64,000 bases of DNA from Marsupella aquatica (taxonomy: Eukaryota; Plantae; Marchantiophyta), in NCBI GenBank assembly GCA_973895155.1, contig OZ316895.1, positions 11,086,184-11,150,183 on the forward strand. Reading direction: 5' to 3'. The translations under genes were made by a program, and so were the position numbers. Shown piece by piece: positions 35,601-57,637 of the stretch. Positions within the stretch are counted from its first letter, which is position 1. Every line of letters starts with the position of its first letter. The notes below the pieces were generated by a model. The model was given only the letters and a program-made list of their open reading frames with translations. It ran no database searches and was not told where the DNA came from.

Positions 35601-35859
35601 GGAGCTAAGAGCAACCCAGGAGGAGAGGGCTACCTTGAAGAAGGAATTGGAGGAAGCCCACAGGGAGCAGGAGGAGGCCAAAAACGAGCTGGAGGGGGCA
35701 CGTAAGGACCTGGATGAAACCCAAGAGGAGTTGGAGGAAATCACGAGGAAGATGGAGAACCTACAGCGGCGGGCCGACAACCAAACAGAGCGGCTGAAGA
35801 AACAGGCCGGCTACGTATCTCATGACCCGATGAAGGATCTGTCCAGTATATGTGTGTAA
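32692..35859 (+). CDS. Intact LTR-associated protein (~1055 aa from first ATG; alternative ATG 32956): N-domain, plant-transposon globular domain, acidic/Pro linker, long coiled coil
   Basis: Uninterrupted ORF; GLEAFVRLPW...EFVGSWEPET...LTPKVIAEVFGLPMG aligns by eye with A's GFEHLASLPW...EFVKNYDD...LTEERLKMIFGLPEG. Confidence 0.78.
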   Translation: MEPGQRPEVRLRVKTRLGLGLGRVKRRRLGRINGKKDGQRRGVRSACRRWWLIREHELGRRLREANYSQLLRQALGERVDTDDRPKEGMSNVNQAAHFWGCLFERATEYIKTYEDEESERAARERQELARLWELQKTAFLGGELIKDEFLWTPTSNQLDDLLFCKDSVVGIREAIKNCNDIHWELKGSTERWTQATVLGETSTAAEMKRKGAVNDEATPAKRTRSAAPKKPAEQQSRRQGEAEEEEVDPMKAIPTRDDTWKGWAATLPVEVQLHFAREEDACFTAMQTKKYQGFMAGSGLEAFVRLPWLKPEVPESDLLEFVGSWEPETNCTRIYGKDFYLTPKVIAEVFGLPMGNKTKVDTRKTLPDKEFRSFPGPSTKNGFFRNTCTNPHIGEMIDFLRVTMHCNLPRAEIGKAQVYLAERPDPSRDYNGYLLNQLKKILKEEQQVIGMGSVSRLGYHMPLLCRYARSQTFAPVLPLQVRAPEEAPTPRPLAEKPQPPVSPTIEQVFRPRKEDLPMQQPGMQSLLKLLEKEKKSASATTTATATMQDTTTEVGLHRLTRENPFAGDKERIRPESKPGVRMYVGTSSSESEAELPEAPTEEEEREKPDVQEVEEAVEDCSHDNSGYGSDHHVPGVRTCGRFVPTLPRVVRGDPNQQSSPESPPPDVAPPSFDGIKQTVQEFQERIKQEEEAALAKEKDLPGGDWPEDIRRLAEKGSKPLAMIEEIRRTAWEQRPRWAMPITSTYSTYAKNRAMEYGEMCGELALGIFGEELEVGPFFHREQLEKHQLEEAVALERSKKDEVIRRLRRMEAEIEDLRAAKKAQDELRIKRHELNIMQGQLDTAQADNQNIKDKLTQTQEELADTIKEREKWKQELKNTEEAHITANSRAMAETQRKEWALKGELEKIRGALEQKEVELGKSYQGIMALQQELASLTASFKADLREKDEMLEQTYAKMNQMESVIIAELDKELRATQEERATLKKELEEAHREQEEAKNELEGARKDLDETQEELEEITRKMENLQRRADNQTERLKKQAGYVSHDPMKDLSSICV

Positions 35860-37135
35860 AATGTTAATAGTAGTAGTAGAAGGTTAGCAGCGTCCCATGC
35901 CGCTAAGCCGCGGAAACGGCCTCGCCAAGCACGAAACCTGCGGGAATCGGCTTGAGCTGGGGGGTTTCTTGGGTTTAGGGAGCCATGGGACGCACCACAG
36001 TTTGGCTAAACTTCTGGACCAGGTCGTAGGCCATGGTCCCCGGGGCTACTTGGTAGTCCTCCATCCTCTTGTGCATTGTGGTTCCTCAACTGGGGCGGTG
36101 AGCTCCTCCGTAGTCTGCAATGGGGAGGGGAAGGTTTCTTCAGGTGGTGGAGGGATTGGGGGTGGTTGTACTGGGGGTAGCGGAGGTTCGACGGAAGGGG
36201 GCGGTGGAATATCAACGGGAGGAGGTGGCAGAGTATTAGTTGGGGCCGCGGGCTCAGGGTTTTCCCGAGACGCGGTAGTCCGCTTGCTCCTGGTTGCAGG
36301 GGTGATATTAGTCGGGGCTGAGGTAGCCATGTTCTTCCCCCAGGCCTCCCGCTGCGCTTTGTACCAGGCGAGGATGATGGTGATGTGACTTCCCAGGTAG
36401 GTCCTTCCCCCGATAGACATACCTCCTTGAGCCCGCTTAAGCTCCCACGAGGACCTGCAGTAAAAGAATTGGGCCCAGGTCCGCCGTTTGTATTGTTCCA
36501 CCTGTACGATCGTATAGAGGGAGATCTCGGATCGTGGCTCAATCATGTGTAGGGTTGTCTGTGACGGGGTCCCCCGTCACTCGAAATCATGAATAATGGG
36601 TTGCAGAGGGGTGTGCCTTTTTAATAGCCACTATAAGTAAGCCATTTTTTAATTTTTTTTAGTTATTTCCGCCATTGTAGGTTGATGATGCCCCGGGTGA
36701 CTTTGTATTCTTCCTCTCGTAACAATTCTAAGATTTGTGGCGACCTAAGCAGGCAAATATTTTGGGACCTTAAAAAGCTAGAGGGCCAACCCCATTGGAA
36801 TTATCGTTTGCTTGAGCTATCGTTGCCACCCCCCTTGTAATTTGAAGAAAAGGGAGCTTTGGGGGGATTAAAATTCCCCATTAGGGAGCCCTGCGAGTGA
36901 CCAGGTGGCGCCCGGGAAACCTAGCCCTTGCATAGGGAGGCGCGCCACGCGAGCGAGGGTGCCGCAAGCCAGGGGCTCCCGTGAGCCGGGCCCAAAGGAC
37001 ACGTGAGTGAAGGAGGGGGGGTATTAAACCCTCCCGCAAGGAGGGAGCAGGACCGGGCGAGCCCTGCATAGGGTCGCGAGCCCACCAGCCGCAGCCGCAA
37101 GTAGACGCAACGGTGAGGGGGAGAAAGCGAGAGGC

Positions 37136-37329
37136 GAGCCGGGGCGCATGGCTTGTGCACAGCCGGGAGGTACCGGGCGGCTTGCCGGAGCCGGGAGGAG
37201 CCCGCGAGTAAGAGCCCAGGTGAGCCGAGCCGGGGCGCATGGCTTGTGCGCAGCCGGGAGGTACCGGGCGGCTTGCCGGAGCCGGGAGGAGCCCGCGAGT
37301 AAGAGCCCAGGTGAGCCGAGCCGGGGCGC
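37136..37329 (+). repeat. 91-bp GC-rich tandem repeat (2.1 copies) in the LTR; also at 48210-48403
   Basis: gagccggggcgc recurs at 37136, 37227 and 37318. Confidence 0.85.
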
Positions 37330-38031
37330 GAGGCGCAGCCGGGTCGCAGCCGGGAGGAGAAGATCGCGGAGTGGGGAGGGGGGCAATTAAGTTCCCTTGG
37401 GAAGGGCCCGCATGAGGGGCTGTGAGTAGGGGGAATTAAATTTCCCCGGCCTTGGAGGACTGGAGGCCACCGCGAGTATGCCCCGGAAGGGAGGCGCGAG
37501 GCGCTCCCGCGAGTAGTGGGGGGAGATTAAATCCCCCATTAAAGCGCAGCCGGGATGCTTCGGAGGGCAGGTCAGAGGGGGGCAGGTACGCGCGCGGCAG
37601 AAGGGGGGAGAAAATACTCCCCGATACACGGGTTAGTCAATACCCAGGAGAGGGCAGCGAACGGCACCTGGTGCTTAGGGGTATACTTAAGGGGGGCCTG
37701 CGCCCTTAGGAAAGCCACCACTTCTTACGTCCCCCTTAACTTTTTTCTTGCTTCCCTTGAGATGCCGAAAGCTTCCCTCAAAACTGCTTCTTTGTAAACA
37801 GTACCCTGGTTCTTGGTTCTCCAATTTTTTTTCCCCTTTCTCTCTAGCTCGGCATGGAATTGGGGGACTCACTGTCTCCGAGCATTAACGGTGGCTGCAA
37901 TGAATTATGTCTGGGAAATTGAGATTGGGTCATTGATTGATCGGGATACGGGGGCTGTTTCGGGCCAGGGAATTGACATTGCTACGGGTGACGGGATTTG
38001 GTGATTGAGGATTTGATTTCGGGATGCACGA

Positions 38032-39885
38032 ATGCTAGATCAACCGGAGTTCAGTGTGGCACGCATTCGGAGATACAAGGCTGCTTACCGTGACTACGTG
38101 GAGACTTTGATTTCAAGGGAGAGAGAAGAGAGAGAAGCTACGATGAGCACGGGATTGGCAGCAGGTTCCACGCCGGTGGGTAGGAGGATTTTTCGTCGAA
38201 TTTATCCCAAGACCTCCGCCAAGGTGATGGAGGATTGTCGGAATATTTTCCAAGCCACCGGGGTTACAGAATTCATGAAGGTGGAGATTACCATCCCCCC
38301 GGGGAAGAGCTGGGACATTGAGGCCGGGATGGAGTTACGAACGGAGGGAATCTACTTTGAATGTCTCAAACGTGTAGTGCCCCATGTAGAGTTGGCTAGG
38401 CTGCTATTTCTGGAGAATCAGAAATTCTCATTCACACCTCGGCACATCAGGGGAGAACTCACGTTGAAGATGGTGGCCACTTGGGTGATTAATCCCACCT
38501 CCACCACTGCCATCCCTCTTTCCGTTGTCAAGGATGTTGAGTATAAGGGATTCCTGGCCAAGGTTCATCAACGGGTCCTTGGCAACGTGCAATCAGGGGT
38601 GGTGAATGAAGAACATTTCGTGGTAGCTATGGACATCAAGAACCACCCAGCCCATGTGTACGGATGGTGGTACTACGGGTTGAAGAAGCTGTTGGCCGCT
38701 GACCTCGGGAGTGTGAAACCAGGTGGGGCTATACATTTGATGGGGTCATTTGTATTGGCCAGGGCAGAAGGGTTGATTGGTTCCCCGGGACAGGAAGACA
38801 CGGAATCATCTCTCACCACGGAGATCCGGAGTATTTCCACTACCGTTATCGGGAAGCTCACGGAGGAATCATCGTCGGCTGGTGGGGATGAAGATAGAGG
38901 AGAAGAAAACCAGGATGAGGACTACACATTGGAGTGGCTTGAATCACTCGTGGGAGATCCGAAAGAGCCCCTGGCCTACAACATTCCGGATGTTTACCTG
39001 GCAGAGCTACGGGATTTCAGAGAGGGAGTCCATGAGGGACTCAAGCTAGTCCACGCATTGAGAGATTCTCTCAAGCACACCACAGCCAGAGTAGAGACGT
39101 TAGAGCAGAGTACCCTGTCTCTGAAGGAGGTGATCAAGGCCAAGGAGGAGACCATTCATGAGAAGGTTAAGCTTCTCCAAGCAGCTCACGTAGAGATCTC
39201 CAACTTGAAGGGAGCCTTGTCCACCAAGGCCAAGGAAGCAGAAGAGGTGGGAGCATTGAGACAAGCATTGGCCAAAGAGAAGCAGAATTCTGGAGAAGTG
39301 GTGGAGTGGAGAAACCAGGTGGGAGCACTACGGAGTCAGGTGGCCGCCTTTGAGACACGAGCAAAGAGGAGTGAGGCCTTGAGTCTGGGGAAACGGAAGA
39401 GCCCCGACACTCCTAGCTCCACACTTTCTCCGGATTTGATCTCCCAGGCTATTGAGATGGTGGTGAAGGAGGTTAGTGGGAAGTATGGGCCCTTGTTGGA
39501 TGGAGCCAAGAAGAGTCAGGAGAAGAGCAAGGGCTTGGAGAAGAAGCTCCGGGAGGTACAGAAATCATTACGGGAGGCTCAGGTCAGTACAGGGATGCCA
39601 CCCAGGTCTGTCACCCCCGGGACTCCCATGGCCACAGGGCAAGTTCTACCGTTGGAGTTGCGGTCCGGAGAAGAGGCTACCCTATGGAAGGACACCATTG
39701 GTGAGGGGTACATTAAAGCGTGGCAGGCCTTGGCCAATTTGAGAAAGCAGGGGAGCACTAGCACAAGGAGTACCCCGGTAAAGAAGAAGAGAAGTGAAGT
39801 GGCACTCACTCCAGTGGAGAGTGATGAGGAGGCCCACTCACGGGGCTCAAGCCAGGGCACCGTGAGTGAAGAGGAGGAGGATTAG
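38032..39885 (+). CDS. Intact 617-aa ORF lying wholly inside the 5' LTR (globular domain plus coiled coil, KKKR/KRK basic patches)
   Basis: ATG-to-TAG ORF, duplicated in the 3' LTR. Confidence 0.8.
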   Translation: MLDQPEFSVARIRRYKAAYRDYVETLISREREEREATMSTGLAAGSTPVGRRIFRRIYPKTSAKVMEDCRNIFQATGVTEFMKVEITIPPGKSWDIEAGMELRTEGIYFECLKRVVPHVELARLLFLENQKFSFTPRHIRGELTLKMVATWVINPTSTTAIPLSVVKDVEYKGFLAKVHQRVLGNVQSGVVNEEHFVVAMDIKNHPAHVYGWWYYGLKKLLAADLGSVKPGGAIHLMGSFVLARAEGLIGSPGQEDTESSLTTEIRSISTTVIGKLTEESSSAGGDEDRGEENQDEDYTLEWLESLVGDPKEPLAYNIPDVYLAELRDFREGVHEGLKLVHALRDSLKHTTARVETLEQSTLSLKEVIKAKEETIHEKVKLLQAAHVEISNLKGALSTKAKEAEEVGALRQALAKEKQNSGEVVEWRNQVGALRSQVAAFETRAKRSEALSLGKRKSPDTPSSTLSPDLISQAIEMVVKEVSGKYGPLLDGAKKSQEKSKGLEKKLREVQKSLREAQVSTGMPPRSVTPGTPMATGQVLPLELRSGEEATLWKDTIGEGYIKAWQALANLRKQGSTSTRSTPVKKKRSEVALTPVESDEEAHSRGSSQGTVSEEEED

Positions 39886-41067
39886 AGTGGTCGTACGGAC
39901 GTGGTTGTACGGCCCCTGGACTTTCCAAATTTTTTGTGAGGGGTCACTCACGGGCTTGTTGGAAAGAGCTCGCGGAGCTGATTCCAACAAGAGGCGGCGC
40001 TCCTCAAACGGAGCCAGGATGAGCAGGTTATGGCCCGACGAAGTTGTGTTTACGGGATACAGAAACGGTCATAACTTGGTCGTCCAATGTCCGTTTAGAG
40101 AGCGGTTGAGTGATTCGTGATCAGGAGGAGGAGAGCTATCCAGGGGTGAACTCAGAAGTGCAAGTGGAGGGGCGCCTAGTTTCGGCCATTGTGGGGTTCC
40201 TTGCAATTTCACGGTTCACGGAGTAACATTGGGGCACCGTCGAAGGCACCGTCGGCCCCATTGTTAGTTTAGGGTTTAGGGTTTTTAGACGCATGTGTGT
40301 GCCGCATGGTTTTAGTTTAGGGGTTTCTTAGTGAAGGGTTTAGCGGCGCCGCTAGGGTAAGCCGCCATCGTTGTGGCCCCGTGAGGGGTGCTTTGGTGTG
40401 TTTTTTGGTATTTAGGGGGAGAGCCCCAGAGTAGTGGGGGGGGAACTCAGCGTAGTACTTGGATGCTTTGGAGTAGCTTTTGTGAGTAGCGCACCGATTA
40501 GGAGAAGTTCAAGCCAGAGTAGTGAGGTGGAGAACGTAGCACTTGTCCCCGGGAGGCAGGAGTTGGGCAGACGGCAGGAGGCCGGGTTGCCCTTGCATGT
40601 GTTACGAGAAACACCAAGAGATATGGATTTGGCTTGAGGTTCCAATATTTTGTGTGTCACTTGTGGTTGCTTGTGTTGTTTGTTTTCCTCCCCTAGTGCG
40701 TGTGGTCGGTGTCATTGTGGAAACATTTGCCCTTGTCACTAGTGTTCAAATCTTATTGTAAATGTTGGTATGCTTGCCCAAGAGAGGAGGGGGGTGGTGA
40801 CATCACTCACCCGGTGGGCATGAGTTGTAGATGGTAGGACCAGTCCCTTGGACTTGATCAAAAACGGAGAGACCAATCGGTAGACTTGATCAAAAAATAC
40901 ACTTCCGGGAGCGGAATCAAACATACTCATACTTAGGTGTGGAAATCCTCCAAATAGCGTCCCTCCACGACCCCGTAATACGATACCAACGGTTTAAGCA
41001 AGGAAAAGTACGGTTTGCACGTATTAATCGTTGGACAGGCAAGTGACATAAGTGTGGTCCTTGTTTT

Positions 41068-41085
41068 TGGCGCCGCTGCCGGGGA
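41068..41085 (+). other. Primer binding site, tRNA-Asp type
   Basis: TGGCGCCGCTGCCGGGGA, one base from the Athila-type TGGCGCCGTTGCCGGGGA. Confidence 0.8.
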
Positions 41086-41300
41086 CCCTTCTTCTTGTTT
41101 GACTACACGAAGAGGGGAGCTACGTCTATTTGGAATTCAAGCCTATCAACCACAATGCAACTTGCGACGGTTGATACGTGAGAAGTTTGTTGGTTACTTT
41201 GTTATTGTACGTCAACCACAACGCATCGTGCGACGGTTGATATTCACAAAGATTGCTTTCTGAGACAATGGTGTGAGTTTGGAATGCAGGTCTCAATGGG

Positions 41301-44300
41301 ATGCCGAGAGGGAGAAGGGGAGGTAGAGGAAGTCCCCAACACACACGTACCCCACTACCCGAGCTAGAAGGGGGGCCCTCTTGGATTGGGACCAGACGAC
41401 GTGTTGCTGCCGAAGAACGCTTACGGCTTGCAGAAGAGAGGAGGTTGCCACTGGTGCTGGAAGAACAAGTTGGTGTGCAACCAGGAGAGGCTCAACGTAA
41501 TGAGGCCATACGCCTAGACGAAGAGCCAGACGTAGATCACGAGCTAGAAGAAGGAGAGCCCTTTGTGTTGGTGCAGTCTGAGTTGCAACAAAATCTCATT
41601 CCAGAGCTCACTGCATTGCCACAAATCGTCTCACACCTATCATCGGTACTGTTACCAGTGGCCCAACGTACGCCATTACCACCTGTGTTGATACAGGCAC
41701 CAGCTGCACCGATGGCAGCTGCACAACGTACCCGTGTTCAGTACGTACCCTTCAAGGGGAGACCAAAGGATGATCCAGACGAATGGATTGAGGAGTTTGA
41801 AGGGATTGCCGAAGCTAATGGGGAGTCTGCACATAAGCTCACTATCATTCCTGGAATGATGAGAGGGGAGGCAGGCCCATGGTTTATTTCGTTGTTGCCC
41901 AACGTAAAAGCCGATTGGGCTTTGTTCAAGCAAGCCTTCTTGAAGGAGTTCAGATCCATCGGAGTGGAGGCCACGTCGCTATTGAAGGTGGGCCAACTTA
42001 GGATGAAGAAGAAGGAGTCATTACGGAGGTTTTTGCAAAGGTTCCAGAAGTTAGTACGACGGATACAAGCCCGTACCGATGATGCTATGCGTCAAGCGTG
42101 GTTTGTAGCTGCCCTACCAAGCAAGATGGGGTTCTTTGTACGTCAAGCCAAGCCAACCACATTGGCTGAAGCTATTGCAGCAGCGGAGTCATACATTGCA
42201 GCTGATGCCACAAGCAAGCGTTGCCAAAGAAAAAAGCTGAAGCCGGTTGACAGTTCGTCTAGTGATGAATCCAGTGGATCTGAGTCGGATAGTAGTGATG
42301 AATCTGAGGATTCTGAGAGCGCTACGGAGTCGGACACTACGGGGTCAGAAGCTGAGAAGCGAAAGAAGAGGAAGAAGAAGTTGTCCAAGAAGACCAAGAA
42401 GTCGTCTCATCGAGAAGTGATGATACCCACGGTGGCCATTACCCCATTATCTACGGCAAGACGTCTCAAGGAGCAAGAGGCCAGGTATGATGAGTTGATA
42501 GAGCAAATGAAAGCGTTGAAGGTGCACTTTGCAGGTCTCAAGCCAGAGAGGAGGAAGGTTCCAGTAGAGAGAGCCAACGTGTGGTGCACCAAGTGCATGA
42601 AGTTTGGTCATGCCCCGAAAGAGTGCCCAGCGGGAGAACCAGCCAAGGTTTTCCAAGTACGGGAGGAGGACGTTGAAGGAGCCAGCTACTCAACCTCTTC
42701 CTATGCAGCGGAGGGGCCAGTTGAGTACTTCATGGAGGAGCCACCGGAGTCCAATGTGTATAGTGTGCAGCCGCTCAACCCGGGACCAAGGAGCATTCAT
42801 GGGATCTCAACTAACGCTCAAGCACCCCCATATGCTAACTATTCCAACGCTACTCCCGGAAATAGGCCACCGTATCCTGGAGTGAGGAAGATCCCTATTT
42901 GTTACAATTGTAGAGTGGCTGGCCACTACGCTAACGTGTGCCCGGAGCCCACACATCAAGGGAACGGAGATTTTGCCCGGTTGTGTCAATTGTGCAAGGG
43001 GGAGGGTCATCTTGCACCACACTGTCCAACCTTGGAAGCAATCAAGGCTCAACAAGCTGGAGGACCGGAGAAGAAGGGACCACCACCCCCGCTCAAAGAA
43101 GCTAACGTCAACTTTCTTGCCACGGAAGCGGTTGACCCGCTTGAGTTCATCCCTGCAAAGGAGTTGGTCACCAAACGGGAAGAGCCCGTAGTGGACGTTC
43201 CCAAGCAGAGGCTGGTCACCATCAAGGAACAGTTAGTACCATCAGTCGTTGTAGTATCTCCAGTTGTGGAGGCACCTTTGGTGGTCGTTGTCACTGCGGA
43301 AGTTGTTGAGCACACACGGTCCCCAAGTCATGAGTGGACTCACGCTGAAAATTTGCCGGAGGTGGACAGTGATGATGAGAGGAGACACTACTCTTGTTAC
43401 CGGGTCTCCACTCGGTCTGGGAAAAAGAAGGACAAGTCTGAACTCAAGCAGAAGTACAAGGAGGTGCATCAAGCTTCCACATCGGGCACCTCACACGAAC
43501 CGGAGGTGCCACCCATGGAAGATAGCGACTTTGACCGGGATAACCCCAAGTTGTTCTACCCAAAGGTGGGAGAAGAGGTACGCAAGCAACTGGAGCAACT
43601 AGAAGCACAAGCCATGCAAGCGGCCATTGACAAAGACCTAGAGGAGGCAAAGGCCAGAAAGAAAGCGGAGGAGAAGGTTGTTCGTTGGAAACCAGGAGAG
43701 GAGGTCATCCCACCCATACCTCCTGCAACTGCGTACAACATTGCTCAAGATATTCTAGATTGTCCAGCCAGTGCCACGATTGGGCAACTGCTACGTGATA
43801 GCTCCCTCTACCGCCGCCAAGTCAAGGAGATTCTTATGAGGAGGAGACGTAGACGAAGGTTACCCAAAGTCGGGGTTGACCCCATACAAGTCAACTGGGT
43901 CACGGAGGATTTGGGTGCCCCAGAACTCACGGTATACATCAACGGATGTGCAATACGGTTTGTACCGGTGGACGGGGGCTCGGGAGTCAACATCATGACT
44001 GAGGAGACGGCAAACCGGTTGGGGTATACGGAGTTAGAGCCACCAGCACGTGCCATGAGGTTGGCTGATGGTGCACGGGTGGTGCCGTTGGAGTGTCTCA
44101 CCAAGATTCCAACAATGATTGGGGGAAAATCTTTCCCCCTCAACTATTTGGTGATGCGACCCGTTCGGCCATACGGTTTTCCCATCTTAATTGGCAGGCC
44201 ATGGTTGTATGTGGCCAAGGTCACCAGTGATTGGGGCAAACGGCAATTTCGGTTTGGCACCCCCACTATTACCATTCCCTGGTCAGCGGAGTCACCTCAA

Positions 44301-47300
44301 GGGGAGACTACCTCTATGGAAGAGCAATATGATTCAGAGGTCACCTCAGATGAGGACGAGGATGAAGTATACATGGTGAAGCTGATTTCTCATCTGACGG
44401 AGGAAGATGTATTTGGCCCACAAGCTGCTACCCCCGAGGAGAGAATTCAGGAGGTACCACTTGACCAAAGTTGTGTTGTGCAGAAGAAAACCAGAGAAGA
44501 GCCACCTACACCACCAATGGCCCAGCTTGTTGATACTCAGGAGGAGGGCCAGGAAGCTCAAGCCATCTTGTTTGACGATGAACGAAGGGAGGAGTGGTTG
44601 AATGACCTCTTGGATGAAGAATTTAGAGAGGAGCTACTGTCACATTACAAAGAATCTGATGTGGAAGAAATGATGGCCCATGTGACAAAAGATCCACCTC
44701 CAACCCGGCCAGACCAGGAGGACAGTGATGCACCTGTGTATGGAGGGATGAGGCTCGCACGGTTGGAAGAGACCTTTGATGAGGAGACACGCAACAAGCT
44801 GGACGTGATCAGGCCAGAGCAGTACACCAAGGTGGAAGTGGGTGAGGGCAAGACACTCAACATTGGTAGTAAGTTGGATGCTACGGAGCAACGCAAGATT
44901 CAAGAATTGTTGAAGGAGTACCAAGATTTGAAAGGAGTGCCACCTGAGTTTGGTGAGCACAGCATTGACCTGATGTCAGGAGCACGACCTGTGAGGCAAC
45001 GCCAATACCGCCTCAACCCCAAGTACTCACTCATGGTGAAGGAGGAGATTGACCGTTTGTTGGATGCAGGCTTCATTTATCCAGTCATGCATAGTGAGTG
45101 GGTGTCACCCATCGTGATCGTGCCCAAGAAGAAGGGGCCAGACGGGAAGGTGAAAATACGGGTGTGCCAAGATTTTCGAAAGTTGAATGAGGCGACCAAG
45201 AAGGATCACTACCCACTGCCGTTTACCGATATCGTGTTGGATATGGTAGCTGGTTGGGAGATTTACAGCTTCTTGGATGGCTACTCTGGCTACAACCAAA
45301 TTTGGATACGGGAGGAGGACCAACTCAAGACGGCTTTCACTACGGAGTGGGGGATTTTTGCATTCCGTAGAATGCCTTTTGGGTTGTGCAATGCCCCTGG
45401 CATGTTCCAGCGGCTCATGATGAATATATTTCACAACTTTTTACGCAGGTTCTTGGAGATCTTTATTGACGACTTTGCTGTCTATGGCAAACGAGTCAAG
45501 CATCCGGAACACTTACGGTTGACTTTTCAGCGGTGCCGGGAGACTTGCTTGAGGCTGCATCCTGAGAAATGTTTCTTTGGAATTGAGGAGGGAACCCTAT
45601 TGGGCCACAAAGTGTCTACTCGGGGGATTGAAGTTGACCGTGAGAAGGTGGCCGTGTGGGTAGCAGTCTCATTTCCCAAGAACGTAAAGGAAGTGAGAGG
45701 GTTCTTGGGGTGTGTTGGATACTATCGACGCTTCATCAAAGACTTTGCCAAGGTAGCCATGCCACTCACCTCCATGTTGAAGAAGGGAAGTGAATTTGAA
45801 CCTACTCCACCCCGACAGGCTGCTTTTGATGAATTGAAGAAACGTTTGCTAGAGGCTCCCGTGCTCATTACGCCCAATTGGAATAAGGAGTTCCATGTCT
45901 ATGTAGACGTATCAGGATTTTGCATCGGTGCCGTTTTGAGTCAGTTAGATGATGATGGAAGGGACCATCCCATCTACTTTTCCAGTAGGCAGTTGGCCCC
46001 GACAGAGAAGAACTACTCACCCACCGATAGGGAGGTACTTGGTATTATTTACGCTTGTAAAAAGTATCATCATTATTTGTTGGGATACAAGGTTGTGTTC
46101 CACACGGATCACAATAGCTTGAAATACATGGTCAACAAGCCAGATCTGTCCGGAAGAATTGCACGTTGGGTTTTGTTGCTGCAGGAGTTCAACTATGAGG
46201 TGAGAGTGAGACCGGGGAAGAATCACAGCAATGCAGACTTCTTCTCCCGTATTGAGGGAGCATCTGACTCACAGGAGATCGATGATCGGTTCCCGGATGA
46301 AGAAGTGTTCAGCGTGACTACGGAGGCCACTACTTGGTATGGAGAAATTTTGGAATTTCTCCGTACGGCGAGAGTTCCCTCACGTTTGGGCCCGGAGAGA
46401 GCAGCAGTGTTTTTACGTAAGACAGGTCCCTACTTGCTTGTGAAGGGAGTACTTCACAAGTACGGCATGGATGGCCGCCTTCGTCGTTGTTTGGAGGAAG
46501 CTGAGATACGTACAGTCATGGCAGCACTACATGAGGAGGAAGCTGGTGGCCACTTTGCACGGGAGACCACCGCAAGGAAAATACTAAATGCTGGATATTG
46601 GTGGCCAACTCTCTTTCGGGATGTACACCGGTACATCCAGCGATGTGATCCGTGCCAGCGGCAAGGCAAGCCAGGGCCCTCCTCACGCCACCCATTGGTG
46701 CCCATACTTCCTCTTGCACCCTTTGAGAAGTGGGGGGTTGATTTCATTGGCCCCTTCACTCCCATCACTAGAAGAGGGAGGAAGCGCTACATCATTCTTG
46801 CAACGGACTATGCCACAAAGTGGGTGGAGGCCCGAGCCATTGCCAAGGATGATGCCAACACCACGGCACGTTTTTTGTACGAGCAGATTTTTACATGATT
46901 TGGTCCCCCATTGGAGCTGGTGAGCGACAGGGGTACTCACTTTCTCAATCATACGATTGAACGTCTGACGGAGAACTACCTGATCTCACATAGGAAGACC
47001 ACTCCGTACCATCCTCGAGCCAACGGGCTCACTGAGAGAGCAAACGGGATCATGGGCAAGATTCTTAACAAGACGGTATCAGCTCACAAGACAGATTGGG
47101 ATTTGAAGTTGTTGGCTGCTACTTACGCCTACAACCTGGCTCACAAGACTACCACGGGCCACAGCCCCTATTTCCTTGTGTTTGGACAACACTCTCTTGT
47201 GCCGGTGGAATTTGAAGTGCCCACCATTCGTATCCTAACACGGGAAAGGGAAGGGGAAGAAAGAAGTGTAGCTGCACGGATCCAACTGTTGGAGCAACTC

Positions 47301-47666
47301 ACTGAGATAAGAGAAGAGGCTTTGACCCGTACGGAGCAGGAGCAAAGCAAACGGAAGTCACATTACGATTCCCGTCTCCGTTGTGTGTCAATTGAGAAGG
47401 GAGATTTGGTACTCCTGTACGACAGTCGTTTTATGCATTTCCCCGGGAAGTTGCATACCCGTTGGATGGGGCCCTACGTAGTGGACGCCGTCTACTCCAA
47501 CGGCTCGGTTCAACTCAAGACGTTGGAGGGGCAACTACTCAACACCCGGATCAATCAAGAACGCTTGAAGAAGTACTACACGGAGGAGGAGTATGGTGCT
47601 CGCGGGGGCGCTTTGCAATTAAGAGGAGAGCTATGTGACGGGGTCCCCCGTCACTTGAAATCATGA
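41301..47666 (+). pseudogene. Gypsy gag-pol (~2120 codons, one frame) with a single premature TGA at 46896-46898 in integrase
   Basis: Three CCHC knuckles, VPVDGGSG protease, RMPFGLCNAP and FIDD in RT, YVDVS RNase H, GGHF..CDPCQ, WGVDFIGP, SDRG, NGLTER, WMGPY; no chromodomain. Confidence 0.93.
47621..47630 (+). other. Polypurine tract of element C
   Basis: AAGAGGAGAG 3 nt before the 3' LTR. Confidence 0.75.
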
Positions 47667-49105
47667 ATAATGGGTTGCAGAGGGGTGTGCCTTGTTAATA
47701 GCCACTGTAAATAAGCCATTTTTAAATTTTTTTTAGTTATTTCCGCCATTGTAGGTTGATGATGCCCCGGGTGACTTTGTATTCTTCCTCTCGTAATAGT
47801 TCTAAGATTTTTGGCGACCTAAGCAGGCAAATATTTTGGGACCTTAAAAAGCTAGAGGGCCAACCCCATTGGAATTATCGTTTGCTTGAGCTATCGTTGC
47901 CACCCCCCTTGTAATTTGAAGAAAAGGGAGCTTTGGGGGGATTAAAATTCCCCATTAGGGAGCCTTGCGAGTGACCAGGTGGCGCCCGGGAAACCTAGCC
48001 CTTGCATAGGGAGGCGCGCCACGCGAGCGAGGGTGCCGCAAGCCAAGGGCTCCCGTGAGCCGGGCCCAAAGGACGCGTGAGTGAAGGAGGGGGGGTATTA
48101 AACCCTTCCGCGAGGAGGGAGCAGGACCGGGCGAGCCCTGCATAGGGCCGCGAGCCCACCAGCCGCAGCCGCAAGTAGACGCAACGGCGAGGGGGAGAAA
48201 GCGAGAGGCGAGCCGGGGCGCATGGCTTGTGCGCAGCCGGGAGGTACCGGGTGGCTTGCCGGAGCCGGGAGGAGCCCGCGAGTAAGAGCCCAGGTGAGCC
48301 GAGCCGGGGCGCATGGCTTGTGCACAGCCGGGAGGTACCGGGCGGCTTGCCGGAGCTGGGAGGAGCCCGCGAGTAAGAGCCCAGGTGAGCCGAGCCGGGG
48401 CGCGAGGCGCAGCCGGGTCGCAGCCGGGAGGAGAAGATCGCGGAGTGGGGAGGGGGGCAATTAAGTTCCCTTGGGAAGGGCCCGCATGAGGGGCTGTGAG
48501 TAGGGGGAATTAAATTTCCCCGGCCTTGGAGGACTGGAGGCCACCGCGAGTATGCCCCGGAAGGGAGGCGCAAGGCGCTCCCGTGAGTAGTGGGGGGAGA
48601 TTAAATCCCCCATTAAAGCGCAGCCGGGATGCTTCGGAGGGCAGGTCAGAGGGGGGCAGGTACGCGCGCGGCAGAAGGGGGGAGAAAATACTCCCCGATA
48701 CACGGGTTAGTCAATACCCAGGAGGGGGCAGCGAACGGCACCTGGTGCTTAGGGGTATACTTAAGGGGGGCCTGCGCCCTTAGGAAAGCCACCACTTCTT
48801 GCGTTCCCCTTAACTTTTTTCTTGCTTCCCTTGAGATGCCGAAAGCTTCCCTCAAAACTGCTTCTTTGTAAACAGTACCCTGGTTCTTGGTTCTCCAATT
48901 TTTTTTCCCCTTTCTCTCTAGCTCGGCATGGAATTGGGGGACTCACTGTCTCCGAGCATTAACGGTGGCTGCAGTGAATTATGTCTGGGAAATTGAGATT
49001 GGGTCATTGATTGATCGGGATACGGGGGCTGTTTCGGGCCAGGGAATTGACATTGCTACGGGTGACGGGATTTGGTGATTGAGGATTTGATTTCGGGATG
49101 CACGA

Positions 49106-51659
49106 ATGCTAGATCAACCGGAGTTCAGTGTGGCACGCATTCGGAGATACAAGGCTGCTTACCGTGACTACGTGGAGACTTTGATTTCAAGGGAGAGAGA
49201 AGAGAGAGAAGCTACGATGAGCACGGGATTGGCAGCAGGTTCCACGCCGGTGGGTAGGAGGATTTTTTGTCGAATTTATCCCAAGACCTCCGCCAAGGTG
49301 ATGGAGGATTGTCGGAATATTTTCCAAGCCACCGGGGTTACAGAATTCATGAAGGTGGAGATTACCATCCCCCCGGGGAAGAGCTGGGACATTGAGGCCG
49401 GGATGGAGTTACGAACGGAGGGAATCTACTTTGAATGTCTCAAACGTGTAGTGCCCCATGTAGAGTTGGCTAGGCTGCTATTTCTGGAGAATCAGAAATT
49501 CTCATTCACACCTCGGCACATCAGGGGAGAACTCACGTTGAAGATGGTGGCCACTTGGGTGATTAATCCCACCTCCACCACTGCCATCCCTCTTTCCGCT
49601 GTCAAGGATGTTGAGTATAAGGGATTCCTGGCCAAGGTTCATCAACGGGTCCTTGGCAACGTGCAATCAGGGGTGGTGAATGAAGAACATTTCGTGGTAG
49701 CTATGGACATCAAGAACCACCCAGCCCATGTGTACGGATGGTGGTACTACGGGTTGAAGAAGCTGTTGGCCGCTGACCTCGGGAGTGTGAAACCAGGTGG
49801 GGCTATACATTTGATGGGGTCATTTGTATTAGCCAGGGCAGAAGGGTTGATTGGTTCCCCGGGACAGGAAGACACGGAATCATCTCTCACCACGGAGATT
49901 CGGAGTATTGCCACTACCGTTATCGGGAAGCTCACGGAGGAATCATCGTCGACTGGTGGGGATGAAGATAGAGGAGAAGAAAACTAGGATGAGGACTACA
50001 CATTGGAGTGGCTTGAACCCTGGGCCCTAAGTGTTACTAATACAGGGAGGACGTGCGAACATCGCAAGGGTGTTTTTAATGTAATGCAAACTAATTTTTA
50101 TAATAGTTTTTAAAGTAGGCAACATCCCTGTATATATATTCAGCACAATATTAGTAATAAGGCTCTTATCAAATACATGTCAGATTAATCTTATGCAAGG
50201 GTACCCAAAATGCCAAGTACACATGTCACTATATGGTTGACACACATGTCATCACTTTACTTGCGCACATGTTCATATAGTAAATCAGATATTTAATTAT
50301 TTGTCGTCATAAGGCAAGTTTGGTTTCGTGGGCTTTAGGAACACTGAGAGGATAGTGCAGCCATGCTTGTCTGTATACTACAGGAAGAACTATAATTCTC
50401 TGGTACTAATTTTGTTTAACTATATAAAATATGTACCCTAAACAAAGGCGTAACATACAAGTCCCCTATGCAAAATAAAGTCTTATCTATTTCAGTATGA
50501 TATTTGCAATTTTAAAAATTCAAGGATGTTTTCAATTCCTTGAAAAACTATATTATAATTTACAAAAGGATAAAATTTAATAAGAAAAGTTAATATTTTT
50601 ACATTAACAAGGGGATTTTTTTTGTGAACAAAAATATTAAGAAGGGGTACATGGGGGGTGTCTGTTCTCAGGGGGGTTCACTTTATATAGTAAGAGTGAG
50701 GGCCCAGGGGGCTTGAATCACTCGTGGGAGATCCGAAAGAGCCCCTGGCCTACAACATTCCGGATGTTTACCTGGCAGAGCTACGGGATTTCAGAGAGGG
50801 AGTCCATGAGGGACTCAAGCTAGTCCACGCATTGAGAGATTCTCTCAAGCACACCACAGCCAGAGTAGAGACGTTAGAGCAGAGTACCCTGTCTCTGAAG
50901 GAGGTGATCAAGGCCAAGGAGGAGACCATTCATGAGAAGGTTAAGCTTCTCCAAGCAGCTCACGTAGAGATCTCCAACTTGAAGGGAGCCTTGTCCACCA
51001 AGGCCAAGGAAGCAGAAGAGGTGGGAGCATTGAGACAAGCATTGGCCAAAGAGAAGCAGAATTCTGGAGAAGTGGTGGAGTGGAGAAACCAGGTGGGAGC
51101 ACTACGGAGTCAGGTGGCCGCCTTTGAGACACGAGCAAAGAGGAGTGAGGCCTTGAGTCTGGGGAAACGGAAGAGCCCCGGCACTCCTAGCTCCACACTT
51201 TCTCCGGATTTGATCTCCCAGGCTATTGAGATGGTAGTGAAGGAGGTTAGTGGGAAGTATGGGCCCTTGTTGGATGGAGCCAAGAAGAGTCAGGAGAAGA
51301 GCAAGGGCTTGGAGAAGAAGCTCCGGGAGGTACAGAAATCATTACGGGAGGCTCAGGTCAGTACAGGGATGCCACCTAGGTCTGTCACCCCCGGGACTCC
51401 CATGGCCACAGGGCAAGTTCTACCGTTGGAGTTGCGGTCCGGAGAAGAGGCTACCCTATGGAAGGATACCATTGGTGAGGGGTACATTAAAGCGTGGCAG
51501 GCCTTGGCCAATTTGAGAAAGCAGGGGAGCACTAGCACAAGGAGTACCCCGGTAAAGAAGAAGAGAAGTGAAGTGGCACTCACTCCAGTGGAGAGTGATG
51601 AGGAGGCCCACTCACGGGGCTCAAGCCAGGGCACCGTGAGTGAAGAGGAGGAGGATTAG
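49106..51659 (+). pseudogene. 3'-LTR copy of the 617-aa gene, broken by CAG>TAG (49985) and the MITE
   Basis: Near-identical to 38032-39885 apart from these lesions. Confidence 0.9.
50018..50709 (+). mobile_element. 692-bp non-autonomous TIR element related to the 10.7-kb P-like transposon
   Basis: TIR CCCTGGGCCCT; TSD GGCTTGAA (50010-50017, 50710-50717); absent in the 5' LTR; both subterminal regions align with those of 12700-23423. Confidence 0.93.
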
Positions 51660-54600
51660 AGTGGTCGTACGGACGTGGTTGTACGGCCCCTGGACTTTCC
51701 AAATTTTTTGTGAGGGGTCACTCACGGGCTTGTTGGAAAGAGCTCGCGGAGCTGATTCCAACAAGAGGCGGCGCTCCTCAAACGGAGCCAGGATGAGCAG
51801 GTTATGGCCCGACGAAGTTGTGTTTATGGGATACAGAAACGGTCAGAACTTGGTCGTCCAATGTCCGTTTAGAGAGCGGTTGAGTGATTCGTGATCAAGA
51901 GGAGGAGAGCTATCCAGGGGTGAACTCAGAAGTGCAAGTGGAGGGGCGCCTAGTTTCGGCCATTGTGGGGTTCCTTGCAATTTCATGGTTCACGGAGTAA
52001 CGTTGGGGCACCGTCGAAGGCACCGTCGGCCCCATTGTTAGTTTAGGGTTTAGGGTTTTTAGACGCATGTGTGTGCCGCATGGTTTTAGTTTAGGGGTTT
52101 CTTAGTGAAGGGTTTAGCGGCGCCGCTAGGGTAAGCCGCCATCATTGTGGCCCCGTGAGGGGTGCTTTGGTGTGTTTTTTGGTATTTAGGGGGAGAGCCC
52201 CAGAGTAGTGGGGGGGAACTCAGCGTAGTACTTGGATGCTTTGGAGTAGCTTTTGTGAGTAGCGCACCGATTAGGAGAAGTTCAAGCCAGAGTAGTGAGG
52301 TGGAGAACGTAGCACTTGTCCCCGGGAGGCAGGAGTTGGGCAGACGGCAGGAGGCCGGGTTGCCCTTGCATGTGTTACGAGAAACACCAAGAGATATGGA
52401 TTTGGCTTGAGGTTCCAATATTTTGTGTGTCACTTGTGGTTGCTTGTGTTGTTTGTTTTCCTCCCCTAGTGCGTGTGGTCGGTGTCGTTGTGGAAACATT
52501 TGCCCTTGTCACTAGTGTTCAAATCTTATTGTAAATGTTGGTATGCTTGCCCAAGAGAGGAGGGGGGTGGTGACAGCACTCACCCGGTGGGCATGAGTTG
52601 TAGATGGTAGGACCAGTCCCTTGGACTTGATCAAAAACGGAGAGACCAGTCGGTAGACTTGATCAAAAAATACACTTCCGGGAGCGGAATCAAACATACT
52701 CATACTTAGGTGTGGAAATCCTCCAAATAGCGTCCCTCCACGACCCCGTAATACGATACCAACGGTTTAAGCAAGGAAAAGTATGGTTTGCACGTATTAA
52801 TCGTTGGACAGGCAAGTGACATTGTCCGTATGAAGTCAGCCGCTCCATACAGACTAGGTTGGTGCATGACCCTTGCTTGTATCCGTTGTCTATCTTACCC
52901 TTGGGTTTGAAGTGCCGGGGTGTATACTCCTTATCCCAAATTTGGAGTTCAACCGACACCGGCCCAGCTGGCAGACAAAAGATCTATGCCAACTGATGCT
53001 CCGTAAGTGATAAGGTCTGCCCTGAAACCTTGGTGGTCGTTACGTTAGTGTCAAAGTTGGAGATGAACTCATAAACCTCCTTTGGCCTAGCTGCGCTAGG
53101 TCTCCATAGCAAGTGAGCAAACTGCTCCAACTAATGCTCCTTGAGATAGTCCGCATGGTCGGGTTTCTTGATCGCCGTCTAGACTACCTCGAGGATGCGG
53201 ATTACCTATAATAAGTTAGGCTGTTGATTATCCGAGGGCCGTTGTCGTGCCGAAAGATTTTGGCTCAGGAATGGCTTTTATAGGGGATGATGGATGAGGC
53301 CTCCCGGTTGGGTTGCGTGCATGCTGACTCGGAGGGGCTACTTGGTTGGATGGATTGAGGTTTGGTGATTGGGTGACTCGTCGTCACCAGGTTTGGTGTT
53401 TGGGTGAGTCACCAGGCTTGGAGTTTGGATGAGCCTCACTGATGGCAGCTGGCTCAGGCTAGATGGTTGGGTTTCCGATGCTACTTAAGACTTGAGCCTT
53501 GGCTCATTGAGGTTGGCGGTTATCTATTGAGATCTGTTGAGTTTCATTCTGTGAGTTTCGCTCCGTTCTGTGAAACTCAACTGTTGTGCGGCGATTTTGG
53601 AGTTCTGTGCGAGTGTTGGATCCAGGTGTGGAGTTTTCAATCCAGGCAGGGATTTCTCGAGTTTGGAGCCTCGTTGGTCCAGGCCCAAGTTTTGTGAGAG
53701 TTGTTTTAGACTAGTGGAGTAGCTAGTCAAGTTTTGGTTTTGTGAGCTAAGGAGGAGAGTTTTTCCGTCAGATTTTGAGTAGATAGTCACTCGAGGAGTT
53801 CAGCTCAACAAGTTAGAGGTAGCGGCCCACCGTAGGGCCAGCTACCAGTCTCTTGCAAGCAAGCTTACTCGAGGACACCCATTCTAACCTTTGTGAGAAA
53901 AGTAAAAAAAATAAAGGAGTGAGAGTTTGCTCCGAAAAGTGCTTGTTGCCTATCCCAATTGCAGCTAGAAATGTGGAGTTTGTCCTCGCGACACCGCCGG
54001 GTCTAGTTGGTCGGTGGGTTGGCCGGGGCAGGTGTAGGGGCGGCGTTGGTTTGCGCTGTTGATGCGGGGGCCGGCGTCATCTTTGCCCGCTTCCGAGAAC
54101 GTTGCTCAAGCTGCGGACTAACACGCTCGAAACCCGAGGAACACTCGGTGTTGTTCATGGGACGGACTTGGGACCGGTTTGGTGGTACGCCGGTGGTCAT
54201 CGGCTGAGGGGCTGGGGGTGGTGTCGGGGTAGCCATATCCCAATTGAAGGCGTTGGAGCTTTCCCCAAGGAACGTAAGATTGCGCACCGCTTCCTGTTAT
54301 CTACTGATGTCTTCTTGGCACTTTTTGGCTACGATTTGCTGGTCGAGGTAATCCGGGATCTTGTCAAACTCCGCTTGAGTCAGCCGCTGGCTGCCCTTCA
54401 GCCTAAAGAACTTTGCTGGGACTTCAAAAATTGCCTCTACTACCGATCTAAGCCCCTCCTCGCTGATATATAACTCGGTGATGTAGTCCCGCAGCTCGTT
54501 GTAGCTGGAATCCTTTGTGATGGTTGTCTTCTCACAGTTAACGTGTGCTACCTTAGCCACCAACTTCGCGTACCTTTGTTCACGGTAAGCGGCTTTCTCG

Positions 54601-55241
54601 GGGCAAGAATACCAATAAGTCTTGGAGAACTTAGCACCTACCTCGCCAAACAAGGTCCAAAATCCCAAGGCTATAAGGGTCATACTAACCTTTGTAGTCT
54701 AGTTTGTTGAGTCCGCGTCCCCGCTCAACAGTTTTGCTTGCTGGTGGAGGCTTCACTCGCCCTGACTAAATCCCGCCACAATCCGCTCTTACCCTTCGAT
54801 AATTTCCTTGTAAAAGTTAGCTTGATTCGAGAAAAAGGCAAGAGGGAATGGCAGCAATCGCGAATTCTGAAAGGTATGAATGAGCAAATGGGCCGCGGCG
54901 CCATTGACTCAGCTCTTATGGAGGTGCCAGGGTGAGCCCGAGCGTGAGAGGGCAAGGCCATTTTGGTCGTTGATAATGACCCAAAGTTGGGTGTCTCGTT
55001 CCAAGCGTGATCCCCTAACGGAGTTTTACTCCGTCGCCGCCACCGTACCTTGGTCGATCGTAATAATCCCCTTTCCTTAATTTGTAATTATTTAGTCAAC
55101 TAACCTACTCCTAATCTATTCATAATGGCAAGGATGGCTATTCATGCTACTCTACGCTATGGCTACGGTCCTAATGACCGTATAAGTCCTAATCTAGGAC
55201 CTGCGTTAGGTTAAGTGACACATTAACCGTGTCACATCCAC

Positions 55242-57434: not shown

Positions 57435-57637
57435 AAATAATATTTAACTCTAAATAGCCATAAACTTTTGTACTCTTATTTGTAAAGGTGGTTGTACTTT
57501 TCCCTTGCAGGAGTATGAGAGAGTTTTAATGAGATAACATCTCCATAAGAACAAAGTACAAAATCTAAGACTTTTGTTGGAGGACTTAACTAGTATAGAG
57601 TTGCTTGCATTACTTCCATAATACAATCAAGGGCAAG

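What the first reader, a model, noticed from the sequence alone, without database searches (positions are those of the whole stretch)
36560..52821. Gypsy element whose 4.5-kb LTRs each contain a complete protein-coding gene
Seen: a 617-aa ATG-stop ORF lies wholly within the 5' LTR (1.5-3.3 kb from its start) and is duplicated in the 3' LTR; the LTR limits are fixed by TSD, PBS and PPT. Knowledge: extra ORFs of plant Athila/Tat/Ogre elements usually sit in the internal region; the classic LTR-borne gene is the MMTV sag. Inference: an accessory gene (anti-silencing, transcriptional or targeting factor) placed where it survives solo-LTR formation.
Basis: partly seen in the sequence, partly recalled or inferred. 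Interest (0 to 1): 0.88.

Follow-up and report, generated by a model that had tools for sequence, protein, structure and literature searches.

The report
Selected gene inside plant retrotransposon LTRs
A plant jumping gene carries, inside its 4.5-kb terminal repeat, a 617-codon gene that evolves under purifying selection and likely encodes a DNA-binding helper that would keep the element from being silenced; terminal repeats are normally non-coding, and two neighbouring repeat-like elements show the same layout.

Summary
The element is real: 36560-52821, TSD TTGTC, LTRs of 4,489 bp about 1% apart, Athila/Tat-like gag-pol whose frame ends 33 nt inside the 3' LTR. The 617-codon ORF lies wholly in the LTR but is intact only in the 5' copy; the 3' copy has a nonsense codon and a 692-bp MITE, and pol has a stop. 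Against an abundant sister subfamily the ORF's first third shows 24 silent and 14 replacement changes, with no stop or indel (dN/dS about 0.2, P=5e-5). It is not a nested insertion. An exact 12-nt copy of the PPT edge 243 nt behind the ORF suggests the LTR grew by a PPT shift that swallowed the usual 3' extra ORF. Homologues exist (27% in a liverwort protein). A link to the PMD/DUF1985/ATHILA/Transposase_32 fold is only a lead, so anti-silencing is inferred. Two neighbouring solo-LTR-like elements also hold long ORFs, of another protein family. I found no plant precedent in 10 searches. This scan has noted LTR-borne genes before in other genomes (fungal, and one giant element), with other proteins.

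The parts
36555..36559 (.). Left target-site duplication TTGTC
36560..41048 (+). 5' LTR, 4,489 bp, TGTGAC..GTGACA
   Evidence: blastn match to the 3' LTR; alignment
36862..37536 (+). GC-rich upstream part of the LTR with four copies of a GGG..ATTAA..TCC motif, a 91-bp tandem repeat (37131-37329) and four GCGAGTA; differs between subfamilies; candidate promoter and binding sites (inferred)
   Evidence: patterns read off the sequence, so their chance figures are optimistic; contig depth about 30-100 times lower than over the ORF
37682..37689 (+). TATA-like box 350 nt upstream of the ORF (candidate promoter of the ORF; inferred)
   Evidence: motif scan
38032..39885 (+). LTR-borne ORF, 617 aa, intact: conserved domain (about 55-245), acidic linker, predicted coiled coil (about 330-450), basic NLS-like motif PVKKKR at 582, acidic tail; no membrane helix
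40128..40139 (+). Exact 12-nt copy of the PPT/LTR edge inside the LTR; candidate ancestral PPT (inferred), which would give an old LTR of 910 bp
   Evidence: 1 of 500 shuffles reached 12 nt
40267..40284 (+). Telobox-like repeats
40409..40415 (+). TATTTAG box 639 nt before the LTR end; candidate TATA box of the genomic RNA, which would put the ORF in U3 (inferred)
   Evidence: same box 647-684 nt before the end of the neighbouring LTR-like elements
41068..41085 (+). PBS-like motif, 19 nt behind the LTR end; tRNA-Asp type by recall only
   Evidence: no tRNA gene in the window to check against
41301..47666 (+). gag-pol, order GAG-PR-RT-RH-INT, one frame of 2,121 codons with one in-frame stop (46896-46898); ends 33 nt inside the 3' LTR
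   Evidence: Pfam
47621..47633 (+). Polypurine tract, inside the integrase frame, abutting the 3' LTR
47634..52821 (+). 3' LTR, 5,188 bp including the MITE
49106..51659 (+). 3' copy of the LTR ORF, broken by a nonsense codon (49985-49987) and the MITE
50018..50709 (.). MITE, 692 bp, short inverted ends, 8-bp TSD GGCTTGAA
51902..51913 (+). PPT-edge copy in the 3' LTR
52822..52826 (.). Right target-site duplication TTGTC

Best explanation
This is an Athila/Tat-like Ty3/gypsy retrotransposon of a land plant whose LTR contains a protein-coding gene under purifying selection, likely captured into U3 when the element began to use a new polypurine tract directly behind integrase, and likely encoding a PMD/VANC-like nuclear DNA-binding protein that would keep the family's own LTRs active. 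Shown: LTR limits, ORF position, selection on the ORF's first third, pol ending inside the 3' LTR, a second copy of the PPT edge behind the ORF, and breakage of the 3' ORF copy and of pol in this insertion. Inferred: (1) the PPT shift moved the whole former pol-to-LTR region, with its extra ORF and promoter, into U3; (2) each LTR is then a self-contained gene (upstream promoter, ORF, poly(A) in R) that solo LTRs would retain; (3) the N-terminal domain binds DNA and the coiled coil oligomerises; (4) the target is the fast-changing motif array in the LTR. My odds: integral selected LTR gene 0.9; PPT-shift origin 0.55; PMD/DUF1985/ATHILA-type fold 0.6; anti-silencing or transactivating role 0.45.
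For: Selection: all 38 differences listed between this ORF (649 nt laid) and the dominant subfamily in run X4 give 24 silent, 14 replacement, 0 stop, 0 indel. The null mean is 11.8 silent, P=5e-5, dN/dS 0.16-0.23; the two other forward frames give 10 and 7 silent changes and one stop each. Of the 12 indels shown (of 104), 1 lies in the ORF and it is 3 nt. A non-coding contig behind the ORF differs at 47 of 250 nt, against 17-25 per 205-410 nt for the ORF contigs of X3 and X4. LTR location in the family: in runs X4 and X3 the LTR's first 170 bp (depth 6,060-6,210; 1,670-1,700) match the ORF contigs (6,006-6,330; 1,583-1,664) and are about 2.2 times the gag-leader depth (2,754; 719) (depth is only a proxy). 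No nested termini. PPT-edge copy at 40128-40139. Homologues: five unnamed fragments at 44-61% and Calypogeia fissa CAM6083533.1 at 27%, same domain-linker-coiled-coil layout. Atlas model of that homologue: 8 of 10 structure rows at TM 0.55-0.65, among them clusters with Transposase_32, ATHILA, DUF1985 and PMD. Papers link these families: PMD-C resembles VANC's DUF1985 and opposes Polycomb at motifs near teloboxes (10.1101/2024.09.27.615353); VANC and the Athila domain are predicted to oligomerise through coiled coils (PMC13547354); VANC binds short motifs in tandem repeats (PMC5735166). No membrane helix, NLS-like motif present.
Against: No Pfam family for the domain even at E 10. My AlphaFold models had mean pLDDT 41.9 and 40.3 and gave no usable match. 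The Atlas rows are all 'under the bar: name no family', rest on a model of pTM 0.30, and concern a homologue, not this protein. Selection rests on one subfamily pair, one run and about 170 of 617 codons. The copy-ratio pattern is clean in only 2 of 4 runs: in X1 and X2 the LTR-start sites (1,004-10,794; 566-4,830) lie well below most ORF sites, so their main subfamilies have a more distant 5' end or do not carry the ORF in this LTR. The sequence after the inner PPT copy does not begin with TG. Promoter and U3/R/U5 limits are motif guesses. The 11 LTR-LTR changes inside the ORF (5 silent, 5 replacement, 1 stop) show no selection since insertion. The genomic place of the Calypogeia homologue is unknown.
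Confidence: 0.55

Rival explanations
1. The LTR-borne gene is real, but its product is an integration-targeting or RNA/particle factor (for example a coiled-coil tether that steers insertions to heterochromatin), not a regulator of silencing.
For: Long coiled coil and basic motifs. The element sits inside nested elements, within the ORF of element B. The functions of ATHILA, Transposase_28 and PMD-type extra ORFs are described as unknown (PMC7264820; PMC11963269).
Against: The tested members of the suspected fold (VANC, MAIN/MAIL) act on chromatin silencing. The upstream LTR part carries motif arrays and turns over between subfamilies.
Confidence: 0.25
2. The ORF is an ordinary 3' extra ORF of Athila type; the long LTR is an accident of this copy or a minor subfamily (use of an upstream PPT), and most of the family has a short 910-bp LTR starting at the inner PPT.
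For: The inner PPT-edge copy. The region 36900-37900 is 30-100 times shallower than the ORF. In X1 and X2 the LTR start is much shallower than the ORF.
Against: In X3 and X4 the LTR start and the ORF have equal depth, about 2.2 times the internal leader, and a contig at ORF depth spans the inner PPT site (40006-40256). Elements A and B also hold ORFs between LTR-like ends.
Confidence: 0.12
3. The ORF belongs to a separate mobile element or captured host gene that inserted into the LTR before this copy transposed, and the selection signal comes from that other life.
For: Depth steps up near 37900-37940, just upstream of the ORF.
Against: No 12-bp inverted pair and no 9-bp TIR with TSD brackets the ORF; TG..CA pairs with 5-bp repeats number 10 against 5.8 +/- 2.5 by chance. 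High depth runs on through the LTR end into the gag leader, and the loose end at 37938 still shares words with the window. The ORF has no introns.
Confidence: 0.05
4. The ORF is an env-like membrane protein.
For: Sense orientation behind pol, as for env-like ORFs (PMC7264820).
Against: Highest 19-residue hydropathy 1.12, no membrane helix, NLS-like motif.
Confidence: 0.03

Closest known systems
Athila and Tat Z1/Z2 (OTA non-chromovirus Ty3/gypsy) elements with extra ORFs (PMC6317226 passages and supplements 4-5; PMC10508981 and PMC13468544 passages)
   Same: 5-bp TSD, single GAG-PR-RT-RH-INT frame, no extra RNase H or chromodomain, large size, a sense extra ORF behind pol.
   Different: No internal region exists between pol and the 3' LTR; the extra ORF is inside the LTR and so duplicated. 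No Pfam ATHILA hit. The PBS-like motif lies 19 nt from the LTR, outside the 0-5 bp that the survey tested. RT phylogeny not done.
Extra ORFs of Ogre (PMD), Retand (Transposase_28), Grande gene23, RIRE2 and Retrosat2 ORF0 (PMC7264820 main text; PMC11963269 and PMC3485330 passages)
   Same: Accessory gene of unknown function kept under selection; often with a coiled-coil region; nuclear in Grande; suspected DNA binding.
   Different: These are described in the internal region, mostly antisense between pol and the 3' LTR or upstream of gag; here the gene is sense and inside both LTRs.
VANC anti-silencing proteins of VANDAL transposons and PMD-C proteins MAIN/MAIL (PMC5735166, PMC13547354, 10.1101/2024.09.27.615353; passages)
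   Same: Possibly the same fold (Atlas lead through a homologue), a coiled coil, short motifs repeated in fast-evolving non-coding DNA of the element, teloboxes nearby.
   Different: Those are DNA-transposon or host genes of flowering plants. No sequence similarity is detectable, the fold is not established, and no binding or chromatin effect has been shown here.
MMTV sag in U3; HIV nef and foamy-virus bel overlapping U3 (recalled, no call read them)
   Same: A protein-coding gene inside the LTR, duplicated at both ends of the integrated element.
   Different: Retroviral genes with immune or transactivating roles, unrelated in sequence; sag is about half the size by recall.
LTR-borne ORFs of fungal gypsy elements noted earlier by this scan (e1-7508684, e1-7556987, e1-7556810, e1-7552734; unchecked AI notes)
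   Same: Same layout: an accessory gene wholly inside U3, shared by several families.
   Different: Fungal hosts and apparently other proteins; a sequence look-up with this ORF found no look-alike in the scan.

Membership tests
Ty3/gypsy LTR retrotransposon | TG..CA LTRs, TSD, PPT, domain order GAG-PR-RT-RH-INT | tested here: met
Athila (Neumann 2019) | 5-bp TSD; single GAG-PROT-RT-RH-INT frame; no extra polyprotein domain | tested here: met
   one in-frame stop is read as damage to this copy
Athila (Neumann 2019) | PBS complementary to tRNA-Asp next to the 5' LTR | tested here: inconclusive
   Motif at 41068 fits tRNA-Asp by recall only and lies 19 nt from the LTR; no tRNA to compare
Athila versus Tat Z1/Z2 | Placement on the RT/RH/INT tree | not tested
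Filed only as Athila/Tat-like.
Tat with additional RNase H (TatI-III, Ogre, Retand) | Additional RNase H domain | tested here: not met
   Pfam finds one RNase H region only
Phygy / Selgy | 4-bp TSD, tRNA-Trp or tRNA-Ala PBS | tested here: not met
   TSD is 5 bp (lineage table)
PMD / DUF1985 / ATHILA / Transposase_32 / Transposase_28 domains | Pfam profile match | tested here: not met
   No hit at E 1 for the whole protein or at E 10 for the domain and its homologues
PMD / DUF1985 / ATHILA / Transposase_32 domains | Shared fold | tested here: inconclusive
   Atlas model of homologue P0005: TM 0.55-0.65 to such clusters, all under the tool's bar; own models pLDDT about 41
VANC-type anti-silencing system | Short target motifs repeated in non-coding DNA of the element | tested here: inconclusive
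   Repeated motifs and a 91-bp tandem repeat exist in the LTR, but nothing ties them to the protein
VANC-type anti-silencing system | Sequence-specific DNA binding and loss of silencing marks in trans | not testable with these tools
   needs DAP-seq, EMSA or expression in a plant
env-like extra ORF | Transmembrane segment | tested here: not met
   highest 19-residue hydropathy 1.12
Nested insertion inside the LTR | Own termini and TSD around the ORF | tested here: not met
Functional accessory gene | Purifying selection and a conserved frame across copies | tested here: met
   24 silent, 14 replacement, no stop, no indel; dN/dS 0.16-0.23; one pair, first third of the ORF
U3-encoded gene | ORF upstream of the genomic-RNA start, with a translatable mRNA of its own | not testable with these tools
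   only TATA-like motifs seen

The most novel reading that the evidence does not exclude
In a lineage of non-seed-plant Athila/Tat elements the LTR itself has become a complete anti-silencing gene: promoter, VANC/PMD-like DNA-binding protein and that protein's own target motifs all lie in U3, brought there by a PPT shift. Solo LTRs would then be expressed selfish modules that keep their family active in trans after gag-pol is gone, and at least three LTR families in this one window would share the design.
Probability: 0.25. Interest if true: 0.85.

Novelty: new variant of a known kind. Interest (0 to 1): 0.62.

Why it matters
LTRs are treated as non-coding, and solo LTRs as the dead end of a retrotransposon. 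If 4-5 kb LTRs of these plant elements are selected genes, removal by LTR-LTR recombination leaves a working gene behind, and annotation pipelines that mask LTRs miss a whole class of proteins. The inner PPT copy offers a visible route by which an internal accessory gene enters the LTR. The compact unit (promoter, ORF and candidate motifs in one repeat) also makes a long-open question testable: what the PMD/ATHILA-type extra ORFs of plant retrotransposons do.

Tried and rejected
No whole genome is held, so no genome-wide copy set. Word-seeded protein searches found nothing with the whole ORF, nothing with the neighbour's domain among longer proteins, and only P0005 with the profile. Of the 7 hits, P0007 (17 short stretches in a 2,022-aa protein) was dropped as repetitive. 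AlphaFold models were too poor (pLDDT 41.9 and 40.3). Foldseek gave 0 matches at E 0.001 and VIA-align only helix matches, best Z 4.6 and 5.3; VANC21 (9LNK) is not among the rows shown, which excludes nothing. PDB sequence search: nothing under E 0.1. Homology between this ORF and the neighbours' ORF family was not detected (hhalign probability 0.08%; cross hmmsearch). No RNA holder listed; this says nothing on expression. Rfam: 0 matches in 36400-41400. The Atlas does not hold this protein or P0001. Env-like reading and nested-insertion reading rejected as above. Paper searches listed no plant retrotransposon with a gene inside its LTR by title or abstract start; most listed papers were not opened.
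Full report
1. Observation. Self-comparison of the window pairs 36560-41049 with 47634-52822 at 98.7-99.3% in two blocks. Both repeats run TGTGAC..GTGACA and the element is flanked by TTGTC. The 5' LTR is 4,489 bp. The 3' LTR is 5,188 bp because it holds a 692-bp MITE with an 8-bp TSD. Without the MITE the LTRs differ at 46 substitutions and one 1-bp indel (K2P 0.010), so the insertion is young. The 617-codon ORF (38032-39885) is intact in the 5' LTR. In the 3' LTR it stops after 293 codons and is then split by the MITE. The title's 'each contain a complete gene' is therefore wrong for this copy, though LTRs are identical at insertion, so both were most likely intact then (inference).

2. The element. 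Pfam gives GAG, PR, RT, RH and INT in gypsy order, with one RNase H and no chromodomain. Gag-pol is one frame of 2,121 codons with one in-frame stop in integrase, and it ends 33 nt inside the 3' LTR. The PPT lies within the integrase frame, so there is no internal region behind pol at all. The 5-bp TSD, the single frame and the lack of an extra domain fit the Athila row of the Neumann lineage table and not Phygy or Selgy. Liverwort Tat Z1/Z2 elements also lack the extra RNase H (PMC10508981; PMC13468544), so I file it only as Athila/Tat-like; no tree was built. The PBS-like motif resembles the tRNA-Asp type by recall and starts 19 nt behind the LTR, which is unexplained. The host is a land plant (a xyloglucan fucosyltransferase gene lies in the window); the only named homologue of the ORF comes from a liverwort.

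3. Is the ORF a selected gene? Contigs of four public runs of two organism labels hold the family. I laid 649 nt of the ORF on run X4 at a 40% share; all 38 differences were listed and no indel. Judged codon by codon, 24 are silent, 14 replace a residue and none makes a stop. Re-dealing the same changes at random gives 11.8 silent on average (P=5e-5 in 20,000 draws). dN/dS is 0.16-0.23 for kappa 1-6.4. The two other forward frames give 10 and 7 silent changes and one stop each. Limits: one subfamily pair, one run, about 170 of 617 codons, and sites near contig ends are not listed. Over the whole LTR, 1 of the 12 indels shown (of 104) falls in the ORF and is 3 nt long. The 11 LTR-LTR changes in the ORF (5 silent, 5 replacement, 1 stop) look neutral, as expected after insertion.

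4. Is the LTR position a family trait? In X4 the first 170 bp of the LTR are seen at depth 6,060-6,210, the ORF contigs at 6,006-6,330 and the gag leader at 2,754. In X3 the figures are 1,670-1,700, 1,583-1,664 and 719. That is the 1:1:0.45 pattern expected of two LTRs per internal region. Contig depth is only a proxy, and the pattern is clean in 2 of 4 runs. In X1 and X2 the LTR-start sites lie well below most ORF sites, which I cannot resolve. The stretch 36900-37900 is 30-100 times shallower than the ORF in all four runs, so this GC-rich part differs between subfamilies. A nested insertion is not supported: no 12-bp inverted pair, no 9-bp TIR with TSD, and 10 TG..CA/5-bp pairs against 5.8 +/- 2.5 by chance; depth also runs on past the LTR end into the leader.

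5. How the ORF got there (inferred). The 12 nt at the PPT/LTR edge recur exactly at 40128-40139, 243 nt behind the ORF's stop, and nowhere else in the window except the paired places; 1 of 500 shuffles of the LTR reached that length. I noticed the match by eye first, so the figure is optimistic, and the sequence after the copy does not start with TG. If this is the old PPT, the old LTR was 910 bp and the ORF sat where Athila's sense extra ORFs sit; a new PPT behind integrase would move 3.6 kb into U3. A TATA-like box lies 350 nt before the ORF and a TATTTAG box 639 nt before the LTR end, after telobox-like repeats. The same box lies 647-684 nt before the ends of the neighbouring LTR-like elements. 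This suggests, without showing, that the genomic RNA starts behind the ORF and that the ORF has a promoter of its own.

6. The protein. It has a conserved domain (about residues 55-245), an acidic linker, a predicted coiled coil (weak coiled-coil Pfam hits), an NLS-like PVKKKR and no membrane helix. Among 1.84 billion representatives 7 proteins scored E 0.001 or better: five unnamed fragments at 44-61% identity, Calypogeia fissa CAM6083533.1 (596 aa) and one repetitive protein that I dropped. The Calypogeia protein matches in the domain (27%, E 4e-19) and in a second block before and in the coiled coil (22%, E 0.001). Pfam names no family. The Atlas model of the Calypogeia domain gave 8 of 10 structure rows at TM 0.55-0.65, including clusters with Transposase_32, ATHILA, DUF1985 and PMD; the feature search listed PMD and DUF1985 clusters at 0.88. 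All are under the tool's bar, the model is weak, and the two searches count as one source. My own models were unusable. The fold is thus a lead.

7. Likely function (inferred). If the fold is right, its tested members act on silencing. VANC binds short motifs in tandem repeats of its own transposon and removes DNA methylation (PMC5735166, passages). PMD-C proteins resemble VANC's DUF1985 domain and oppose Polycomb at motifs near teloboxes (10.1101/2024.09.27.615353, passages). VANC and the Athila domain are predicted to oligomerise through coiled coils (PMC13547354, passages). The LTR offers candidate targets: four GGG..ATTAA..TCC boxes, a 91-bp tandem repeat and four GCGAGTA in the fast-changing upstream part. 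I put an anti-silencing or transactivating role at 0.45, targeting or particle roles next.

8. Neighbours. Element A (10322-29386, TSD CGCAT) is two tandem LTR-like units of about 4 kb without gag-pol, each with a long, now broken frame: proline-rich stretch, domain, coiled coil. Element B (30936-55236, minus strand, TSD TCCAC, TG at its start but TA at its end) holds a related broken frame, into which the studied element inserted, and an intact 1,055-codon ORF on the other strand. These frames are related to each other (E 6e-15 to 4e-7; E 1e-18) but not detectably to the 617-aa protein. That A and B are solo LTRs rests on termini, TSD and size only. If they are, LTR-borne genes recur in this host with at least two protein families.

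9. What is known. The review PMC7264820 (main text read) places plant extra ORFs in the internal region. PMC6317226 (passages, supplements 4 and 5) classes them as 5' or 3' of the polyprotein and notes LTRs up to about 5 kb. Its element table (supplement 1) was too large to read and could hold LTR-located cases; the 2011 survey by Steinbauerova was not seen. PMC11963269, PMC3485330 and PMC6431247 were seen as passages and describe no ORF inside an LTR in those passages. Ten searches listed no plant case; the library lacks most subscription papers. MMTV sag is recalled. Earlier notes of this scan report LTR-borne genes in fungal gypsy elements and in one giant element, unchecked; none matches this sequence.

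10. Verdict. A real, selected accessory gene inside a plant retrotransposon LTR, intact in one of two copies here, with a plausible trace of how it got there and an unproven function. It is a new variant of a known kind; interest 0.62.

Noticed in passing
window 10322-29386: Element A: two tandem LTR-like units (about 4 kb each) with one shared 5-bp TSD and no gag-pol; each holds a broken frame of about 730 codons (domain plus coiled coil) and a shorter frame before it. The first 41 bp are duplicated at the left end and missing from the second unit.
   Followed up: partly
window 30936-55236, minus strand: Element B: solo-LTR-like, TSD TCCAC, inserted in a copia element; holds a broken frame related to A's, which the studied element interrupts.
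   Followed up: partly
window 32692-35859: Intact 1,055-codon ORF of the A/B protein family on the opposite strand inside element B; its boundaries and TSD were not found; no Pfam family, no homologue.
   Followed up: partly
window 41049-41067: 19-nt gap between the 5' LTR end and the PBS-like motif; standard reverse transcription would leave these bases on the cDNA end, so end processing is unexplained.
   Followed up: no
window 12700-23423: 10.7-kb DNA transposon with an 8-bp TSD and the same termini as the MITE in the 3' LTR. Its two long ORFs (17768-19984, 20294-22501) have no Pfam or PDB match; some motifs recall P-element-type transposases (recalled, untested).
   Followed up: partly
window about 11092-11388: A second, roughly 300-bp MITE-like insertion in element A.
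   Followed up: no
window 4494-10089, minus strand: Decayed Ty1/copia element with LTRs of about 290 bp at 96% identity.
   Followed up: no
window about 29400-30935 and 55237-57650: Decayed Ty1/copia element split by element B, and preceded directly by element A.
   Followed up: no
window 60924-62720: Intronless xyloglucan fucosyltransferase-family gene, 598 aa (PF03254, E 8e-50).
   Followed up: no
window 40409, 28702, 24744, 31583: A GTATTTAG box lies 639-684 nt before the 3' end in all three LTR or LTR-like families, which share no other detectable DNA similarity.
   Followed up: partly
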